7,847 nt of DNA from a virus. Its lineage: Duplodnaviria > Heunggongvirae > Uroviricota > Caudoviricetes. Position 1 is the first letter of the stretch, and the number at the start of each line of letters is the position of its first letter. The position numbers and the translations under genes were made by a program. Positions 1,865 through 7,847 of the stretch are shown one piece after another. Location: IMG/VR virus record IMGVR_UViG_2671180338_000002, positions 1 through 7,847 of that record. One strand, given 5' to 3'. The notes below the pieces were generated by a model. The model did not search any database. It was not told where the DNA came from and worked only from the letters and a program-made list of their open reading frames with translations.

Positions 1865-2296
1865 ATGTTTCTGAAAACAGAACAATTTGAATATAACGGT
1901 GTGTCTGTCACGCTTTCCGAATTGTCTGCGCTGCAGCGTATCAAGCATCTTGCCCTCCTGAAACGGCGTGCAGAACAGGCAGAATCCAGCGGCAACCTGC
2001 AGGTAAGCGTGGAAGATCTCGTCAGAACCGGCGCGTTTCTGGTGGCGATGTCCCTGTGGCATAACCATCCACAGAAAACGCAGTCACCGTCAATGAATGA
2101 GGCCGTGATGAAGATAGAGCAGGAAGTGCTCACCACCTGGCCTGCCGATGCCATTGCCCGGGCGGAAGACGTGGTGTTGTGCCTGTCCGGGATGATCGAA
2201 GCTGTTCGTCCGGATACTGATATTACTGAAGTGGCGAAAAATAACACGCTGACTGATGATGATTTTTCTGCGGGAAAGTCTTCGACGGCGAGCTGA
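1865..2296 (+). CDS. G: Tail assembly chaperone G (zero-frame product)
   Basis: 143-aa ORF MFLKTEQFEYNGVSVTLSELSALQRIKHLALLKRRAEQAE...AMSLWHNHPQKTQSPSMNEA.., recognisable as lambda gpG; GGAGG SD upstream; contains the in-frame slippery heptamer G GGA AAG near its 3' end. Confidence 0.9.
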   Translation: MFLKTEQFEYNGVSVTLSELSALQRIKHLALLKRRAEQAESSGNLQVSVEDLVRTGAFLVAMSLWHNHPQKTQSPSMNEAVMKIEQEVLTTWPADAIARAEDVVLCLSGMIEAVRPDTDITEVAKNNTLTDDDFSAGKSSTAS

Positions 2297-2736
2297 ACTT
2301 TGCCCTCAGACTGGCGCGTGAGATGGGGAGACCCGACTGGCGCGCCATGCTTGCCGGGATGACATCCACCGAATATGCCGACTGGCGCCGTTTTTACCGC
2401 ACGCATTATTTTCAGGATACCCAGCTGGATATGCATTTTTCCGGGCTGACGTACGCTGTACTCAGCCTGTTTTTTTGCGATCCGGATATGCATCCCTCTG
2501 ATTTCAGTCTGCTTGTCCCCCGGCATGAGGAAGAGCAGGTGGAGAGGCCGGATGAGGACAAAATGCTGATGCAGAAAGCGGCAGGACTTGCCGGAGGCGT
2601 CCGGTTCGGTGGGGACGGAGGGCGCGATATTTTATCGTCTGCGGATGTGGCGGATGTCATGGTGGATGATGCCGCATTAATGATGGCTTCAGCGGGGATT
2701 CCGGGAGGTGTGAGATATGTCCCAGCCGGTTGGTGA
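1865..2736 (+). CDS. GT: Tail assembly chaperone G-T fusion made by programmed -1 ribosomal frameshift at 2272-2278; the T-frame part is read from 2278 to the stop at 2734-2736
   Basis: Slippery sequence GGGAAAG at 2272-2278 is in the G frame as G GGA AAG; the -1 frame continues VFDGELNFALRLAREMGRPDWRAMLAGMTSTEYADWRRFY...GGVRYVPAGW, which I recognise as lambda gpT. The T frame has no independent in-context start before 2323. Confidence 0.85.
2272..2278 (+). promoter_or_regulatory. -1 programmed ribosomal frameshift slippery heptamer (G GGA AAG)
   Basis: Exact X XXY YYZ heptamer in the G zero frame, 6 codons before the G stop, with an open -1 frame downstream encoding the T homologue. Confidence 0.85.
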
Positions 2737-5290
2737 TCTTGTTATTGACCTGAGTCTGGATGCTGTCCGTTTCGATGAGCAGATGAGCCGGGTAAGGCGT
2801 CATTTTTCAGGTCTGGATACCGACGCCAGAAAAACCGCCAGTGCTGTTGAACAGGGCCTGAGCCGCCAGGCGCTGGCTGCACAAAAAGCCGGGATTTCCG
2901 TCGGGCAGTATAAAGCGGCCATGCGAACCCTGCCCGCACAGTTTACGGATATCGCCACGCAGCTTGCCGGTGGTCAGAATCCCTGGCTGATCCTGCTGCA
3001 ACAGGGCGGTCAGGTGAAGGACTCCTTCGGCGGGATGATCCCCATGTTCAGGGGGCTTGCCGATGCGATCCCCCTGCCGATGGTCGGGGTCACCTCGCTG
3101 GCGGTGGCGACAGGTGCACTGGTGTACGCCTGGTACCAGGGAGATTCCACGCTTTCAGCGTTTAATAAAACCCTGGTTCTTTCCGGTAATCAGTCCGGAC
3201 TGACTGCCGATCGTATGCTGACTCTCTCAAGAGCCGGGCAGGCAGCAGGGCTGACGTTTAACCAGGCGAGAGAGTCACTGGCAGCCCTGGTGAATGCCGG
3301 TGTGCGTGGTGGTGAACAGTTTGATGCCATCAACCAGAGTGTCGCGCGTTTTGCGTCTGCATCCGGTGTGGAGGTGGATAAAGTCGCTGAAGCCTTCGGG
3401 AAGCTGACCACTGACCCGACGTCGGGACTGATGGCGATGGCGCGCCAGTTCCGTAACGTGACGGCAGAGCAGATTGCGTATGTTGCACAGCTGCAGCGTT
3501 CCGGAGACGAGGCCGGGGCATTGCAGGCGGCGAACGATATCGCCACGAAAGGCTTTGATGAGCAGACCCGTCGCCTGAAAGAAAACATGGGAACACTGGA
3601 GACCTGGGCGGATAAAACAGGGAAGGCATTCAAATCGATGTGGGATGCCATTCTGGATATCGGTCGTCCGGAATCCTCAGCGGATATGCTCGCCAGTGCG
3701 CAGAAGGCATTTGATGAGGCGGATAAAAAATGGCAGTGGTACCAGAGTCGGAGCCAGCGCCGCGGTAAAACCTCCTCTTTCCGGGCCAACCTTCAGGGCG
3801 CATGGGATGACCGGGAAAATGCCCGTCTGGGTCTGGCAGCGGCAACGCTGCAGTCGGATATGGAAAAAGCCGGTGAACTGGCGGCAAGGGACAGGGCTGA
3901 GCGTGAGTCGTCACAGCTGAAGTATACCGGAGAGGCGCAGAAGGCGTATGAGCGCCTGCTGACGCCACTGGAGAAATATACCGCCCGGCAGGAAGAGCTG
4001 AATAAGGCCCTGAAAGACGGGAAAATCCTGCAGGCGGATTACAACACGCTGATGGCGTCGGCAAAAAAGGATTATGAGTCGACGCAGAAAAAGCCGTCCG
4101 GTGTGAAGGTGTCTGCCGGTGAGCGCCAGGAAGACCAGGCGCATGCAGCCCTGCTGGCGCTTGAAACTGAGCTCAGGACGCTGGAGAAGCACAGCGGTGC
4201 GAATGAAAAAATCAGCCAGCAGCGCCGTGATTTATGGAAAGCGGAAAATCAGTATGTGGTCCTGAAAGAGGCCGCCACGAAACGGCAGTTATCTGAGCAG
4301 GAAAAATCCCTGCTGGCCCATGAGAAAGAAACGCTGGAGTACAAACGCCAGCTGGCTGAGCTGGGCGACAAGATTGAACACCAGAAACGGCTGAATGAGC
4401 TGGCACAGCAGGCGGCGCGGTTTGAACAGCAGCAGAGCGCGAAGCAGGCGGCAATCAGCGCAAAAGCCCGCGGACTCACCGACCGTCAGGCGCAGCGGGA
4501 GTCGGAAGAGCAGCGCCTTCGTGAGGTGTACGGTGATAATCCGGCTGCGCTGGCGAAGGCCACATCTGCACTGAAGAACACCTGGTCTGCGGAGGAGCAG
4601 CTTCGTGGAAGCTGGATGGCCGGGATGAAGTCCGGCTGGGGCGAGTGGGCGGAAAGTGCGACGGACAGTTTTTCGCAGGTTAAAAACGCGGCCACGCAGA
4701 CCTTTGACGGTATTGCACAGAATATGGCAGCGATGCTGATCGGCAGCGAACAGAACTGGCGTGGTTTCACCCGTTCTGTGCTGTCCATGCTGACAGAGAT
4801 TTTTCTGAAGCAGGCGATGGTGGGGATAGTCGGGAGTATCGGCAGCGCCATTGGCGGTGCTTTCGGTGGTGGTGCGTCTGCCTCCACGGGGACGGCCATT
4901 CAGGCTGCGGCGGCGAACTTCCATTTCGCGACCGGGGGATTTACGGGGACGGGGGGTAAATATGAACCTGCGGGGATTGTTCATCGCGGGGAGTTTGTCT
5001 TCACGAAGGAGGCGACCAGCCGGATTGGTGTCGGCAATCTGTACCGCCTGATGCGGGGCTATGCGGAAGGTGGTTATGTCGGCGGTGCCGGAAGTCCGGC
5101 GCAGATGCGGCGGGCGGAAGGCATTAATTTTAATCAGAACAATCACGTGGTGATTCAGAACGACGGCCCCAACGGGCGGGCAGGGCCGCAGCTGATGAAA
5201 GCGGTGTATGAGATGGCCCGCAAGGGGGCACAGGATGAACTCCGGCTGCAGTTGCGTGATGGCGGTATGTTATCAGGGAGCGGTGGATGA
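2717..5290 (+). CDS. H: Tail tape measure protein H
   Basis: 857-aa ORF MSQPVGDLVIDLSLDAVRFDEQMSRVRRHFSG...; long alpha-helical/coiled-coil middle region rich in Q/E/K/R/A, Gly-rich hydrophobic C-terminal segment; recognisable along its length as lambda gpH; GGGAGG SD 8 nt upstream; start lies 20 nt inside the end of the T frame. Confidence 0.95.
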   Translation: MSQPVGDLVIDLSLDAVRFDEQMSRVRRHFSGLDTDARKTASAVEQGLSRQALAAQKAGISVGQYKAAMRTLPAQFTDIATQLAGGQNPWLILLQQGGQVKDSFGGMIPMFRGLADAIPLPMVGVTSLAVATGALVYAWYQGDSTLSAFNKTLVLSGNQSGLTADRMLTLSRAGQAAGLTFNQARESLAALVNAGVRGGEQFDAINQSVARFASASGVEVDKVAEAFGKLTTDPTSGLMAMARQFRNVTAEQIAYVAQLQRSGDEAGALQAANDIATKGFDEQTRRLKENMGTLETWADKTGKAFKSMWDAILDIGRPESSADMLASAQKAFDEADKKWQWYQSRSQRRGKTSSFRANLQGAWDDRENARLGLAAATLQSDMEKAGELAARDRAERESSQLKYTGEAQKAYERLLTPLEKYTARQEELNKALKDGKILQADYNTLMASAKKDYESTQKKPSGVKVSAGERQEDQAHAALLALETELRTLEKHSGANEKISQQRRDLWKAENQYVVLKEAATKRQLSEQEKSLLAHEKETLEYKRQLAELGDKIEHQKRLNELAQQAARFEQQQSAKQAAISAKARGLTDRQAQRESEEQRLREVYGDNPAALAKATSALKNTWSAEEQLRGSWMAGMKSGWGEWAESATDSFSQVKNAATQTFDGIAQNMAAMLIGSEQNWRGFTRSVLSMLTEIFLKQAMVGIVGSIGSAIGGAFGGGASASTGTAIQAAAANFHFATGGFTGTGGKYEPAGIVHRGEFVFTKEATSRIGVGNLYRLMRGYAEGGYVGGAGSPAQMRRAEGINFNQNNHVVIQNDGPNGRAGPQLMKAVYEMARKGAQDELRLQLRDGGMLSGSGG

Positions 5291-5616: not shown

Positions 5617-6314
5617 TGCAGGATATTCGCGAAGAAAGTCTGAACGAGTCGGTTAAGTCAGAGCAGTCACCGCGGGTGGTACTCTGGGAAATCGACCTGA
5701 CGGTACAGGGTGGTGAGCGGTATTTTTTCTGTAATGAGCTGAATGAAAAAGGGGAGCCGGTCACCTGGCAGGGGCGTAAGTATGAGGCATACCCGATTGA
5801 CGGCAGCGGCTTTGAGATGAACGGCCGGGGCAGCAGTGCCAGACCGTCGCTGACGGTGTCCAATCTGTTCGGTCTGGTCACCGGGATGGCGGAAGACCTG
5901 CAGAGTCTGGTGGGGGCCACGGTGGTCCGCCGCCGGGTGTATGCCCGTTTTCTGGATGCGGTGAATTTCGTTGCGGGCAATCCGGAGGCGGACCCGGAGC
6001 AGGAGCTGAGTGACCGCTGGGTGGTGGAGCAGATGTCGCAGCTGACAGCCATGACGGCCTCGTTTGTGCTGGCTACACCGACCGAGACGGACGGGGCGCT
6101 GTTTCCCGGTCGCATCATGCTGGCGAACACCTGTATGTGGGATTACCGGGGAGATGAATGCGGGTATAACGGTCCTGCGGTGGCGGATGAGTTCGACAAC
6201 CCCACCACGGATATCCGTAAGGACAGATGCAGCAAGTGCATGCGCGGGTGTGAACTGCGCAGGAATGTCGGCAATTTTGGCGGTTTCCTTTCCATTAATA
6301 AACTTTCGCAGTAA
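5616..6314 (+). CDS. L: Tail tip protein L, with a C-terminal cysteine cluster
   Basis: 232-aa ORF MQDIREESLNE..VVLWEIDLT..GGERYFFCNE..GEPVTWQGRKYEAYPI..FPGRIMLANTCMWDYRGDECGYNGPAVADEFD..CSKCMRGC..VGNFGGFLSINKLSQ, recognisable as lambda gpL; start ATG overlaps M stop (TGATG). Confidence 0.92.
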   Translation: MQDIREESLNESVKSEQSPRVVLWEIDLTVQGGERYFFCNELNEKGEPVTWQGRKYEAYPIDGSGFEMNGRGSSARPSLTVSNLFGLVTGMAEDLQSLVGATVVRRRVYARFLDAVNFVAGNPEADPEQELSDRWVVEQMSQLTAMTASFVLATPTETDGALFPGRIMLANTCMWDYRGDECGYNGPAVADEFDNPTTDIRKDRCSKCMRGCELRRNVGNFGGFLSINKLSQ

Positions 6315-6324
6315 ATCCCGGTTT

Positions 6325-7068
6325 ATGACACAGACTGAATCAGCGATTCTGGCACATGCCCGGCGGTGTGCGCCTGCGGAGTCGTGCGGCTTCGTGATAA
6401 GCACGCCGGAGGGGGAGCGGTATATCCCTTGTGTGAATATTTCCGCAGAGCCGGAGGCGTATTTTCGTATCGCACCGGAAGACTGGCTGCGGGCAGAGAT
6501 GCAGGGGGAGATTGTGGCACTGGTCCACAGTCATCCCGGTGGGCTGCCCTGGCTGAGCGAGGCTGACCGGCGGTTGCAGATAAAAAGCGCACTGCCCTGG
6601 TGGTTGGTCTGCCGGGGTGACATTCACAAATTCCGCTGTGTGCCACATCTGACAGGACGGCGCTTTGAGCACGGGGTGACGGACTGTTACACGCTGTTCC
6701 GGGATGCTTATCATCTGGCGGGGACTGAAATGCCGGATTTTCATCGCGAGGATGACTGGTGGCGCAACGGTCAGAACCTTTACCTGGACAATATGGCGGT
6801 CACCGGCTTTTACCGGGTGCCCCTGTCCTCTGCACAGGCGGGCGATATTCTGCTGTGCTGCTTTGGTGCTTCGGTACCGAACCATGCCGCCATTTACTGC
6901 GGCAACGGTGAGCTGCTTCACCATCTGCCTGAACAACTGAGTAAACGGGAGAGGTATTCCGAAAAATGGCAACGACGAACGCATTCAGTCTGGCGTCACC
7001 GCCACTGGCACGCATCTGCCTTCACGGGGATTTACAACGATTTGGCCGCCGCCTCAGCCTGTATGTGA
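6325..7068 (+). CDS. K: Tail tip assembly protein K, predicted JAB/MPN (JAMM) plus NlpC/P60 two-domain protein; start codon uncertain (longest in-context ORF given; an internal ATG at 6499 is the alternative)
   Basis: ORF in frame from the ATG at 6325 just after the L stop; contains the JAMM-like motif HSHPGGLPWLSEAD (6526-6567) and a downstream Cys (GVTDCYTLF, Cys codon 6685-6687) and His (PNHAAIY) typical of NlpC/P60 papain-like peptidases; recognisable as a lambda gpK homologue. No clear SD before 6325. Confidence 0.82.
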   Translation: MTQTESAILAHARRCAPAESCGFVISTPEGERYIPCVNISAEPEAYFRIAPEDWLRAEMQGEIVALVHSHPGGLPWLSEADRRLQIKSALPWWLVCRGDIHKFRCVPHLTGRRFEHGVTDCYTLFRDAYHLAGTEMPDFHREDDWWRNGQNLYLDNMAVTGFYRVPLSSAQAGDILLCCFGASVPNHAAIYCGNGELLHHLPEQLSKRERYSEKWQRRTHSVWRHRHWHASAFTGIYNDLAAASACM

Positions 7069-7679
7069 ACACGGCAGCGGAAGCCATTCGCGCCCTGTCG
7101 ATGCAGATGCCGGGCTTTCGCCGTCAGATGAACGAAGGCTGGTACCAGATACGTATTGCCGGTTATGACACGGCACCGGAGGCGGTGTACGCCCGTCTTC
7201 ACGAACAGCTGGGTGAGGGAACGGTCATCCACATTGTGCCGCGACTGGCCGGGGCCGGAAAGGGTGGACTGCAGATTGTGCTGGGGGCGGCAGCCATCGT
7301 GGGCTCTTTCTTCACTGCCGGGGCATCAATGGCGTTATGGGGTTCAGCCCTGGCAGCCGGTGGTTTTTCTGCCACCACGATGCTGTTTTCACTTGGAGCC
7401 AGCATGATTCTGGGCGGTGTGGCCCAGATGCTGGCCCCGAAGGCAAAAACACCGGATTACCGCGCAACGGATAACGGCAGACAGAACACGTACTTTTCCT
7501 CACTGGATAACATGATTGCCCAGGGGAACCCGATGCCGGTGCCTTACGGGGAAATGCTGGTTGGCTCCCGCCGTATATCCCAGGACATCAGCACCCGTGA
7601 TGAAGGCGGGGGCGGAAAGGTCGTGNNNNNNNNNNNNNNNNNNNNNNNNNAGGTCGTGGTTATCGGGCGGCAGGGGTAA
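6966..7679 (+). CDS. I: Tail tip assembly protein I (interrupted by a 25-nt N-run at 7626-7650)
   Basis: ORF MATTNAFSLASPPLARICLHGDLQRFGRRLSLYVNTAAEAIRAL... with an N-terminal compact domain ending ..IHIVPRLAGAGKGG followed by a Gly/Ala-rich hydrophobic C-terminal half; recognisable as lambda gpI; overlaps the 3' end of K by 103 nt in a different frame, as K and I do in lambda. Confidence 0.83.
   Translation: MATTNAFSLASPPLARICLHGDLQRFGRRLSLYVNTAAEAIRALSMQMPGFRRQMNEGWYQIRIAGYDTAPEAVYARLHEQLGEGTVIHIVPRLAGAGKGGLQIVLGAAAIVGSFFTAGASMALWGSALAAGGFSATTMLFSLGASMILGGVAQMLAPKAKTPDYRATDNGRQNTYFSSLDNMIAQGNPMPVPYGEMLVGSRRISQDISTRDEGGGGKVVXXXXXXXXXVVVIGRQG
7626..7650. other. Run of 25 N (assembly gap or masked bases) within the 3' end of gene I
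   Basis: Literal n characters at 7626-7650; flanked on both sides by the identical octamer AGGTCGTG (7618-7625 and 7651-7658). Confidence 0.99.
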
Positions 7680-7725
7680 AAAGAATAAAAAAATCCCGCA
7701 GTGATCGCGGACAGGAACTGCGGGA
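7680..7725 (-). terminator. Candidate rho-independent terminator for a leftward (minus-strand) transcript
   Basis: Inverted repeat TCCCGCAGT (7694-7702) / ACTGCGGGA (7717-7725), a 9-bp GC-rich stem with a 14-nt loop; on the minus strand the stem is followed immediately by TTTTTTTATTCTTT (plus 7680-7693). On the plus strand no U-run follows, so it is not a plus-strand terminator. Confidence 0.45.
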
Positions 7726-7789
7726 GAGTTACGAAGATTAAGTGTAAGGAATTATTCTTATATCACGACAAAAAAATTAACGCAGAGAA

Positions 7790-7817
7790 ATTATACGCGC
7801 CACAGTCAGTTTGTGAA
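7790..7817 (-). promoter_or_regulatory. Candidate sigma70 promoter on the minus strand (-35 TTCACA, 16-nt spacer, -10 TATAAT)
   Basis: Minus-strand reading: TTCACA (plus 7812-7817), 16 nt, TATAAT (plus 7790-7795), a perfect -10 hexamer and 4/6 match to the -35 consensus, inside an AT-rich non-coding stretch. Confidence 0.35.
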
Positions 7818-7847
7818 AATGTGAAGATATTCAGAATTTTTATGCCA

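What the first reader, a model, noticed from the sequence alone, without database searches (positions are those of the whole stretch)
6325..7679. K/I pair: predicted JAB peptidase next to a ubiquitin-like protein ending in Gly-Gly
The N-terminal ~100 aa of I form a compact domain ending ..IVPRLAGAGKGG (Gly-Gly codons at 7263-7268), followed by a Gly/Ala-rich hydrophobic tail. K carries a JAMM-type metalloprotease motif plus an NlpC/P60 domain. Comparative analyses by Iyer, Burroughs and Aravind proposed that the lambda-family tail assembly proteins I (ubiquitin-like beta-grasp) and K (JAB + NlpC/P60) form a ubiquitin-like processing module. This copy preserves the catalytic-motif residues and the diglycine. 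To my knowledge the biochemical role in tail tip assembly has not been shown experimentally. The 103-nt K/I overlap (6966-7068) keeps the two translationally linked.
Basis: partly seen in the sequence, partly recalled or inferred. Interest (0 to 1): 0.45.

Follow-up and report, generated by a model that had tools for sequence, protein, structure and literature searches.

The report
Lambda-type tail proteins K and I
This is an ordinary, intact copy of the phage-lambda tail-tip assembly genes K (a two-headed protease) and I (a tail plug made with a removable ubiquitin-like cap); the idea that K clips the cap off I dates from 2006 and a 2025 meeting talk reports it as shown.

Summary
K (6325-7068, 247 aa) is a Prok-JAB plus NlpC/P60 protein with both catalytic motifs intact. 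I (6966-7679) is a Lambda_tail_I protein, and Gly100-Gly101 lie at 7263-7268. The K/I overlap is 103 nt.

- Iyer et al. predicted it in 2006.
- Lambda cryo-EM shows only the C-terminal part of gpI in virions.
- An F-pyocin preprint shows that the N-domain is proteolytically removed.
- A report of a 2025 meeting says the Davidson lab showed that gpK cleaves the Ubl off gpI.

Corrections:
- The fold ends at about residue 95. The family-wide conserved glycine is G96, which lines up with the ThiS/MoaD C-terminal GG. The GG at 100-101 is less conserved, so the scissile bond is unresolved.
- The 25-N run plus a duplicated 8-mer inside I is an assembly or masking artefact. The true I is 226 aa.
- RefSeq starts I at GTG 7065, which cuts off beta1-beta2.

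The locus is 100% identical to prophages in many E. coli genomes. In passing: an unannotated sRNA-like module lies in the I-J gap.

The parts
6325..7068 (+). Gene K: tail-tip assembly protein, 247 aa, with an N-terminal JAB/MPN+ metalloprotease domain and a C-terminal NlpC/P60 cysteine peptidase domain.
   Evidence: ORF. Pfam Prok-JAB plus NLPC_P60. AF2 mean pLDDT 82.8. Foldseek matches to PfJAMM1, Rpn11 and CSN5, and to MepS, LytE and CwlO. 98% identical to database 'C40 family peptidase / phage tail protein' entries.
6331..6639 (+). JAB (JAMM) domain of K, residues 3-105. Catalytic Glu19 lies at 6379-6381, and H68-x-H70-x7-S78-x2-D81 at 6526-6567.
   Evidence: Pfam. The motif is conserved in 23 of 24 close homologues; the exception, P0164, is frameshifted across it. 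It is also conserved in 13/13 diverse phages. Structural match to 5lda_A: E 4.7e-5, target-normalised TM 0.66.
6655..6996 (+). NlpC/P60 domain of K, residues 111-224. Cys121 lies at 6685-6687, His187 at 6883-6885 and His199 at 6919-6921.
   Evidence: Pfam. The triad is conserved in all aligned homologues. Foldseek matches to Acd33800, MepS/Spr, LytE and CwlO.
6966..7068 (+). K/I overlap of 103 nt. It encodes the last 34 codons of K and, in the -1 frame, the first 34 codons of I, including beta1 and beta2 of the beta-grasp.
   Evidence: Read. ATG 6966 is the only ATG/GTG/TTG in the I frame between the upstream stop (6942-6944) and GTG 7065. Beta1-beta2 (residues 15-32) are predicted with pLDDT about 72, and G21, L23 and G27 are at least 90% conserved in diverse homologues.
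6966..7679 (+). Gene I: precursor of the tail-tip plug/insertion protein. The true length is 226 aa; the window copy reads 237 codons because of the artefact at 7618-7658.
   Evidence: Pfam Lambda_tail_I. phmmer to lambda gpI chain 8iyk_I, E 8e-94. Identical genomes give ...GGGGKVVVIGRQG*.
7005..7250 (+). Ubiquitin-like (MoaD/ThiS-type) beta-grasp domain of I, residues about 14-95.
7251..7268 (+). Gly-rich linker G96-A97-G98-K99-G100-G101, the presumed processing site. G96 (7251-7253) is the family-conserved glycine.
   Evidence: Conservation counts. pLDDT falls below 50 from residue 96. Profile position 84 (= G96) aligns with residue 89 of the 90-residue CysO chain 4n6e_B.
7269..7445 (+). Two hydrophobic Gly/Ala-rich helices, residues about 102-160. 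They correspond to H1/H2 of lambda gpI, which are predicted transmembrane helices.
   Evidence: Sequence. Helix predicted from residue 108. Description of lambda gpI H1/H2 (PMC11101478; PMC10721106).
7446..7676 (+). C-terminal structural domain of I (plug plus beta-strands that thread through J). It corresponds to lambda gpI residues about 159-223, which are seen in virions.
   Evidence: phmmer to 9e7m_Ia, which holds lambda gpI residues about 134-223 only: E 2e-37. Cryo-EM descriptions.
7618..7658 (.). Artefact: AGGTCGTG, then 25 N (7626-7650), then AGGTCGTG. This adds 33 extra bases relative to real genomes.
   Evidence: Alignment to PPompW_132418. 100%-identical E. coli genomes span 515 nt where the query spans 548 nt. 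Translation of the ATCC 25922 copy.

Best explanation
The window is the distal half of a lambda-type tail operon (Z, U, V, G/T, H, M, L, K, I) from an E. coli lambdoid prophage.

I is made as a precursor with three parts: an N-terminal MoaD/ThiS-like ubiquitin-fold domain (residues about 14-95), a short Gly-rich linker (96-101), and the structural part. The structural part has two hydrophobic helices and a C-terminal plug domain.

K is a non-virion assembly enzyme. During tail-tip assembly, I docks with J and L. The zinc-dependent JAB domain of K then cuts the linker and releases the Ubl. The C-terminal piece stays in the tip lumen as a trimer that holds the C-terminus of the tape-measure protein and plugs the tube. 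The Ubl therefore acts as a removable cap or checkpoint that orders the assembly steps.

Shown here: domain identities, folds, intact catalytic residues, and conservation of the pair across phages. Taken from the literature: the Ubl is absent from virions, the F-pyocin homologue is cleaved, and a meeting report states that gpK cleaves gpI. Inferred: that this copy behaves the same way, the exact scissile bond (after G96 or A97, or after G101), and the role of the NlpC/P60 domain.
For: Context: Pfam matches to Z, U, V, G, T, H, M and L, plus the G-T slippery site GGGAAAG at 2272-2278.

K: JAB plus NlpC/P60 with all catalytic residues. The model has pLDDT 82.8 and resembles PfJAMM1 solved with SAMP2 (5lda), Rpn11 and CSN5.

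Pairing: All 14 diverse phages sampled carry a K with Prok-JAB and NLPC_P60 domains upstream of an I. The catalytic motifs and P92/G96 were checked and found intact in 13 of them. Hosts were Escherichia, Morganella, Burkholderia, Acinetobacter, Pseudomonas, Vibrio, Serratia, Erwinia and Ralstonia.

Literature:
- Prediction by Iyer et al. 2006 (PMC1779556).
- gpK was not detected in virions, and only gpI 135-223, 134-222 or 101 onward was resolved (PMC10721106, PMC12617516, PMC11101478).
- Virion mass spectrometry found one gpI peptide with 9.87% coverage, which equals 22 residues. That matches the C-terminal tryptic peptide (my inference).
- The PA0640 N-domain is present in stalled tips but absent from mature F-pyocin, and the K homologue PA0639 is essential.
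- A meeting report says gpK cleaves the Ubl from gpI after gpI joins the tip complex (PMC12908700).
Against: - Nothing here tests catalysis.
- The only direct statement that K cleaves I is a conference summary. I found no data paper.
- PA0640 expressed alone in E. coli lost its N-domain to unknown host proteases, so K is not strictly needed for removal in that setting.
- No position in the linker is a strictly conserved Gly-Gly, which canonical JAMM enzymes prefer.
- The AF2 model of the I N-domain is of moderate confidence: pLDDT 72-78, from a shallow alignment of 35 close relatives.
Confidence: 0.85

Rival explanations
1. The Ubl of I is removed, but not by the JAB site. The cut is made by the NlpC/P60 cysteine peptidase domain of K or by host proteases, and the JAB domain has another substrate or only binds the Ubl.
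For: The NlpC/P60 triad is as conserved as the JAMM motif in all sampled phages. PA0640 alone is trimmed by host proteases in E. coli. No strict GG occurs at any linker position.
Against: The JAB fold matches enzymes that cut after beta-grasp modifiers, such as PfJAMM1 with SAMP2. The meeting report attributes the cleavage to gpK and names its 'deubiquitinating domain'. Iyer et al. found JAB-Ubl association across many unrelated operons.
Confidence: 0.08
2. I is not cleaved. The N-terminal domain stays attached in the virion and is merely disordered in the cryo-EM maps.
For: [quoted passage not shown] One even speculates that it could be a cell-wall enzyme.
Against: F-pyocin mass spectrometry finds N-domain peptides only in stalled precursors. 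The lambda virion data fit a single C-terminal peptide, although the Ubl would yield several good tryptic peptides. The meeting report describes cleavage. The fold is a beta-grasp, not a hydrolase.
Confidence: 0.03
3. The released Ubl acts as a true modifier or sulfur carrier. After cleavage its C-terminus is activated and either conjugated to a tail or host protein, or thiocarboxylated, for example in connection with the Fe-S cluster of L.
For: The closest folds are the sulfur carriers and modifiers MoaD, ThiS, CysO, SAMP and Urm1. Iyer et al. mention possible thiolation.
Against: The window encodes no E1-like adenylating enzyme or E2; all its ORFs are tail proteins. Position 97 is mostly Ala/Ser and is Arg in two of the 13 sampled phages, so it is not a conserved terminal Gly. 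No report of conjugates exists.
Confidence: 0.02

Closest known systems
Bacteriophage lambda gpK / gpI (tail tip assembly proteins K and I)
   Same: Same gene order (L-K-I), same 103-nt K/I overlap (lambda coordinates from memory) and same domain architecture. I matches lambda gpI over its full length: 8iyk_I E 8e-94, and 66% identity by tblastn to lambda DE3. PRxAGAxxGG sits at the same residue numbers.
   Different: Sequence divergence of about 34% in I. The I-J spacer is about 343 nt and carries an extra sRNA-like module; lambda has a short gap (from memory). Otherwise nothing differs.
Archaeal JAMM1 with SAMP (P. furiosus JAMM1-SAMP2, PDB 5LDA)
   Same: A minimal JAB/MPN+ metalloprotease acting on a MoaD/ThiS-type beta-grasp protein. 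This is the best structural match for the K JAB half. SAMP1 is among the best matches for the I N-domain.
   Different: JAMM1 removes SAMP from conjugates made by an E1. In K/I the Ubl is genetically fused to its 'substrate', the cut is a one-off maturation step, no E1 is present, and K carries an extra NlpC/P60 domain.
Mec+/CysO and QbsD/QbsE (bacterial JAB peptidases that trim sulfur-carrier Ubls); knowledge of these systems is from memory plus Iyer et al.
   Different: Those act in cofactor or amino-acid biosynthesis with E1-like enzymes and a thiocarboxylate. K/I acts in virion assembly.
F-type pyocin PA0639 / PA0640 (Pseudomonas aeruginosa)
   Same: PA0640 is a gpI homologue. The chain 25vf_9 (200 aa), which I take to be PA0640 or a close relative, matches I at E 3e-14 and the I N-domain profile at E 7e-12. 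Only its C-terminal part is in the particle, its N-domain is removed at maturation, and the K homologue is essential.
   Different: It belongs to a tailocin, not a phage. The preprint does not identify the protease.
Phage T5 baseplate hub protein pb3 plug domain
   Same: It occupies the same position in the tip lumen as the gpI trimer, and is thought to insert into the outer membrane.
   Different: It is an internal domain of one large protein, with no Ubl cap or dedicated protease.

Membership tests
JAB/MPN+ (JAMM) metalloproteases (Pfam PF14464 Prok-JAB) | Profile match above the curated threshold | tested here: met
   59.2 bits against a cut-off of 25, E 4.4e-16, residues 3-105 covering profile positions 3-113 of 114.
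JAB/MPN+ (JAMM) metalloproteases (Pfam PF14464 Prok-JAB) | JAMM motif E...HxHx7Sx2D (zinc ligands plus catalytic Glu and Ser) | tested here: met
   E19, H68, H70, S78 and D81 are present and conserved in 13/13 diverse phage K proteins.
JAB/MPN+ (JAMM) metalloproteases (Pfam PF14464 Prok-JAB) | MPN fold | tested here: met
   AF2 model with pLDDT 82.8. Foldseek matches to 5lda_A/5ld9_A (PfJAMM1), 4ocm_B (Rpn11) and 4d10_E (CSN5), with E between 5e-5 and 4e-4.
JAB/MPN+ (JAMM) metalloproteases (Pfam PF14464 Prok-JAB) | Zinc-dependent cleavage after the C-terminal tail of a beta-grasp protein | not testable with these tools
   Only a meeting report covers lambda gpK (PMC12908700).
NlpC/P60 (C40) peptidases (Pfam PF00877) | Profile match above threshold, and papain-like fold | tested here: met
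   48.9 bits against 23, residues 111-224 covering profile positions 1-105 of 105. Foldseek matches to 9ubf_A, MepS (8xup), LytE (8i2e) and CwlO (8wt3).
NlpC/P60 (C40) peptidases (Pfam PF00877) | Catalytic Cys-His-His/polar triad | tested here: met
   C121 (DCY), H187 (NHAA) and H199 (LLHH) are conserved in all aligned homologues.
NlpC/P60 (C40) peptidases (Pfam PF00877) | Peptidoglycan or other defined substrate | not testable with these tools
   The substrate is unknown. gpK is absent from virions, which argues against a role in cell-wall penetration.
Lambda tail assembly protein I (Pfam PF06805; TAPI of Iyer et al.) | Profile match above threshold | tested here: met
   62 bits against 23.8, residues 15-97.
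Lambda tail assembly protein I (Pfam PF06805; TAPI of Iyer et al.) | N-terminal ThiS/MoaD-like beta-grasp fold | tested here: met
Lambda tail assembly protein I (Pfam PF06805; TAPI of Iyer et al.) | Conserved glycine at the C-terminal end of the beta-grasp, followed by a Gly-rich linker | tested here: met
   G96 occurs in 88/93 representatives and 13/13 phage loci. The linker is G96-A-G-K-G-G101.
Lambda tail assembly protein I (Pfam PF06805; TAPI of Iyer et al.) | C-terminal structural (TAPI-C / plug) domain | tested here: met
   Residues 137-221 match 9e7m_Ia at E 2e-37.
Lambda tail assembly protein I (Pfam PF06805; TAPI of Iyer et al.) | Gene neighbourhood L-K-I-J | tested here: met
   L, K and I are in the window. 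J lies beyond the window end, but follows I after 343 nt in the 100%-identical ATCC 25922 prophage.
Conjugatable ubiquitin-like modifiers / sulfur carriers (Ub, SAMP, ThiS, MoaD) | Beta-grasp fold | tested here: met
Conjugatable ubiquitin-like modifiers / sulfur carriers (Ub, SAMP, ThiS, MoaD) | Terminal Gly-Gly, free or exposed by processing, strictly conserved | tested here: inconclusive
   G96 is followed by A/S/R/G. GG at 100-101 is present here, but G100 occurs in only 43/93 representatives, and Erwinia phage Eho49 lacks residues 98-102.
Conjugatable ubiquitin-like modifiers / sulfur carriers (Ub, SAMP, ThiS, MoaD) | Cognate E1-like adenylating enzyme | tested here: not met
   The window has none; all its ORFs are tail proteins. 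The rest of the prophage was not examined. I therefore file this as a Ubl-fold processing module, not a conjugation system.

The most novel reading that the evidence does not exclude
K may be a dual maturation protease. Its JAB site removes the Ubl from I. Its NlpC/P60 site is equally conserved in every phage sampled, although K never enters the virion. [quoted passage not shown] The catalyst of that cleavage is stated to be unknown (PMC12617516).

Probability: 0.12. Interest if true: 0.5.

Novelty: already known. Interest (0 to 1): 0.15.

Why it matters
If the K/I mechanism is as described, a virus uses a ubiquitin-fold domain and a JAMM 'deubiquitinase' as a built-in assembly checkpoint. It does so without any conjugation machinery, which bears on how the ubiquitin toolkit evolved before eukaryotes. 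That point belongs to lambda research, not to this window: it was predicted in 2006 and reportedly demonstrated in 2025.

This window adds small practical notes:
- The common RefSeq start for I (GTG overlapping the K stop) deletes two strands of the Ubl.
- The conserved glycine is G96 rather than the GG.
- Both K active sites are conserved in 13/13 diverse phages, and the K/I domain pairing holds in all 14 sampled.
- The NlpC/P60 half still lacks a known substrate.

Tried and rejected
1. A programmed -1 frameshift producing a K-I fusion. The databases hold K-I fusion proteins, but their junctions fall at different places in the overlap: after ...QRRT...QRRTH...HRAW and ...HSLW. The overlap has no X-XXY-YYZ heptamer (read). 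I rejected this idea; the fusions look like sporadic indels or pseudogenes.

2. The search for related loci with I-family alignments failed twice because no stretch was conserved enough. I used tblastn against phage records instead.

3. A profile search meant to deepen the AF2 alignment returned only enterobacterial relatives, so the I model rests on a shallow alignment.

5. I could not retrieve the Structure 2024 lambda tail paper (8IYK), nor any data paper for the Davidson result. The exact first modelled residue of gpI ('101 onward') is therefore second-hand.

6. For the sRNA-like module in the I-J gap:
- Rfam gave nothing at gathering threshold and only chance-level hits at E <= 1.
- A full-text search for its sequence found nothing.
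- The Pas-sRNA preprint prints no sequences to compare against.

7. K as a virion cell-wall hydrolase is unlikely, because gpK was not detected in virions.
Full report
**Observation**

The window carries ten same-strand ORFs. Pfam identifies them as lambda Z, U, V (with an Ig-like Big_2 domain), G, T, H, M, L, K and I. The lambda G-T slippery heptamer GGGAAAG sits at 2272-2278, at the 3' end of G.

K runs from ATG 6325 to the stop at 7066-7068 and encodes 247 aa. I runs from ATG 6966 to the stop at 7677-7679.

K matches Prok-JAB (residues 3-105, E 4.4e-16) and NLPC_P60 (residues 111-224, E 7e-13). I matches Lambda_tail_I (residues 15-97, E 7.3e-17). These matches are far beyond chance.

**Origin**

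The K/I region (window 6000-7847) is 97% identical to PPompW prophages of EHEC. The stretch 7300-7847 is 100% identical to prophages in E. coli ATCC 25922 and many other complete genomes. It is found in 1,886 of 5,426 complete genomes.

In ATCC 25922 the operon continues with J, lom, stf and tfa. This is therefore an ordinary lambdoid prophage tail module.

**K**

The JAMM motif is complete: E19, H68-S-H70, S78 and D81. So is the NlpC/P60 triad: C121, H187 and H199. Both are conserved in 23 of 24 close homologues; the exception, P0164, is frameshifted across the JAMM motif. Both are also conserved in 13 of 13 K proteins from diverse phages of Morganella, Burkholderia, Acinetobacter, Pseudomonas, Vibrio, Serratia, Erwinia, Ralstonia and Escherichia, including HK022 and T1-like phages. 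A fourteenth, very divergent Acinetobacter phage also has both domains.

The AlphaFold2 model has mean pLDDT 82.8. Its N-terminal half superposes on Pyrococcus furiosus JAMM1, including the entry solved with the Ubl SAMP2 (5lda), and on Rpn11 and CSN5. Its C-terminal half superposes on DL-endopeptidases such as MepS/Spr, LytE, CwlO and Acd33800.

No K protein has a solved structure. By sequence, the PDB holds only one weak match (E 7e-5), the JAB-type chain 2kks_A.

**I**

The AlphaFold2 model of residues 1-130 is of moderate confidence. pLDDT is 72-78 for residues 11-95, and below 50 for residues 1-10 and from residue 96 onward. The secondary-structure order is beta-beta-alpha-beta-alpha-beta.

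Downstream come two hydrophobic helices and a C-terminal domain. That domain matches the lambda gpI fragment deposited from virions: 9e7m, E 2e-37; full-length 8iyk_I, E 8e-94.

**Where the Ubl ends**

I collected 92 cluster representatives plus the window copy from an exhaustive HMMER search and counted conservation across these 93 sequences:

| Position | Count (of 93) |
|---|---|
| P92 | 88 |
| G96 | 88 |
| A97 | 67 (otherwise mostly S, R or G) |
| G100 | 43 |
| G101 | 75 |
| G107 | 88 |

In a cleaned set of 74 sequences, P92 and G107 are invariant and G96 is at least 90% conserved.

Among the 13 phage loci, G96 is present in all. GG at 100-101 appears in seven (eight counting the window copy). 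Erwinia phage Eho49 lacks residues 98-102 entirely.

One lambda paper describes gpI as resolved 'from position 101 onward' in the closed tail (PMC11101478). If exact, this would argue against a cut after G101. I could not check the coordinates, so the scissile bond remains open.

**Literature**

Iyer, Burroughs and Aravind (2006) identified the Ubl in tail assembly protein I. They noted its conserved C-terminal glycine and its linkage to the JAB plus NlpC/P60 protein K, and they proposed that the JAB releases the Ubl (PMC1779556).

Lambda cryo-EM and mass spectrometry show that gpK is not in virions. Only the C-terminal part of gpI is seen, as a trimeric plug holding the C-terminus of gpH (PMC10721106, PMC12617516, PMC11101478).

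The virion mass-spectrometry table lists one gpI peptide with 9.87% coverage. That corresponds to 22 residues, the length of the C-terminal tryptic peptide (my inference).

A 2026 preprint on F-pyocin shows that N-domain peptides of the gpI homologue PA0640 occur in stalled tips but not in mature particles. It shows that the K homologue PA0639 is essential, and it leaves the protease unidentified. It also notes that host proteases trim PA0640 when it is expressed alone.

[quoted passage not shown] The cleavage occurs only after gpI has bound other tip proteins (PMC12908700). I found no full paper.

**Mechanism and rivals**

The best-supported model is a self-contained maturation step. I enters the J-L tip complex with its Ubl attached. 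The JAB domain of K cuts the linker, the Ubl and K leave, and the remaining part of I anchors the tape measure and plugs the tube. My confidence is 0.85.

- Rival 1: the cut is made by the NlpC/P60 domain or by host proteases (0.08).
- Rival 2: there is no cleavage, only disorder in the maps (0.03).
- Rival 3: the freed Ubl acts as a modifier or sulfur carrier (0.02). The window has no E1, and position 97 is not a conserved glycine.

The function of the strictly conserved NlpC/P60 site remains unexplained. One speculative candidate is the gpH to gpH* cleavage, whose catalyst is unknown.

**Overlap, starts and the artefact**

ATG 6966 is the only start codon in the I frame upstream of beta1-beta2, which belong to the conserved fold. 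The 103-nt overlap is therefore real.

RefSeq/PGAP instead starts I at GTG 7065, overlapping the K stop. This gives a 193-aa protein that lacks the first two strands, and many database entries share this truncation.

Translational coupling is not a family requirement. In other phages the overlap ranges from 7 to 73 nt. In HK022, a Pseudomonas phage, a Ralstonia phage and a Vibrio phage, K and I are separated by 0.3-1.7 kb of inserted genes.

The 25-N run at 7626-7650, flanked by duplicated AGGTCGTG, adds 33 bases that identical genomes lack. It is an assembly or masking artefact, and the true I is 226 aa. K-I fusion proteins in the databases have varied junctions and look like sporadic indels.

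**Verdict**

The feature is a textbook lambda K/I pair in a common E. coli prophage. The mechanism was predicted in 2006 and has reportedly been demonstrated. Novelty: already known. Interest: 0.15.

**In passing**

The first 165 nt or so after I form a discrete module that is not annotated as an RNA in any record examined. On the minus strand it has a sigma-70-like promoter and, about 95 nt downstream, an intrinsic terminator. It has no ORF and no Rfam match.

Matches to the I-J spacer occur in 66 phage records at 70-98% identity, mostly covering this 165-nt module. The wider query 7300-7847, which contains the module, matches 1,643 complete E. coli genomes at 80% coverage or more.

Ten variants show an invariant AATCTTC stretch next to an invariant terminator stem, with a variable 5' part. 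This is the layout of an Hfq-type sRNA. It may correspond to one of the recently named Pas sRNAs, but I could not verify this.

Noticed in passing
window 7683-7817, minus strand (continues in L014 9348-9515): An sRNA-like module lies in the I-J gap and is not annotated as an RNA in any record examined. It has a promoter-like TTCACA-16-TATAAT (window 7817-7790) and an intrinsic terminator CCCGCAG-loop-CTGCGGG followed by a T-run (window about 7724-7686). The predicted RNA is about 100 nt, with no ORF and no Rfam hit. In ten variants, AATCTTC and the terminator stem are invariant while the 5' part varies. Matches to the I-J spacer occur in 66 phage records; the wider query 7300-7847, which contains the module, matches 1,643 complete E. 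coli genomes at 80% coverage or more, with up to 11 places per genome. It may be one of the Pas sRNAs, but this is not verified.
   Followed up: partly
window 7618-7658: A run of 25 N flanked by duplicated AGGTCGTG lies inside the 3' end of gene I. Identical genomes lack these 33 bases, so it is a scaffold-gap or masking artefact and not a real insertion.
   Followed up: yes
window 7065 (GTG) versus 6966 (ATG): RefSeq/PGAP and many database entries start gene I at the GTG that overlaps the K stop codon, giving 193 aa. This removes residues 1-33, which include beta1-beta2 of the ubiquitin-like fold. The long form from ATG 6966 is needed for the complete domain.
   Followed up: yes
window 6325-6470 (K residues 1-48): The full JAB domain needs the N-terminal 48 or so residues, including catalytic Glu19. 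A review cites lambda gpK as 199 aa (PMC7291167), which is 48 residues shorter than this 247-aa K. If that shorter start is used (my inference, not checked against the lambda record), it would cut off the start of the JAB domain.
   Followed up: partly
L014 9548-9590 (beyond the window end, between the sRNA-like module and J): A second strong hairpin, AAACCCCGGTATC-loop-GATACCGGGGTTT, has T-rich runs on both sides. It looks like a bidirectional terminator just upstream of J.
   Followed up: no
L005 2215-3439 (HK022); L007 1788-2015; L008 840-2433: The K-I and I-J junctions are insertion hot-spots for 'moron' genes in other phages. HK022 carries gp20, gp22 and the minus-strand srb. Vibrio phage pVa-3 has 1.7 kb between K and I, including two opposite-strand genes.
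   Followed up: partly
window 2272-2278: The lambda G-T programmed -1 frameshift heptamer GGGAAAG sits at the 3' end of G (1865-2296), ahead of the T reading frame (2323-2736).
   Followed up: partly
window 4600-5290 (C-terminal part of H, 2717-5290): The tape-measure protein has a Gly-rich C-terminal region (GGAFGGGASASTG..., GGFTGTGGK...). It is comparable to the region where lambda gpH is cut to gpH* by an unidentified protease.
   Followed up: no
proteins P0146, P0163, P0232, P0080, P0096, P0443: Public databases contain K-I (and L-K, L-I) fusion ORFs. Their junctions fall at different points of the overlap, consistent with sequencing errors or decaying prophages rather than a regulated fusion.
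   Followed up: yes
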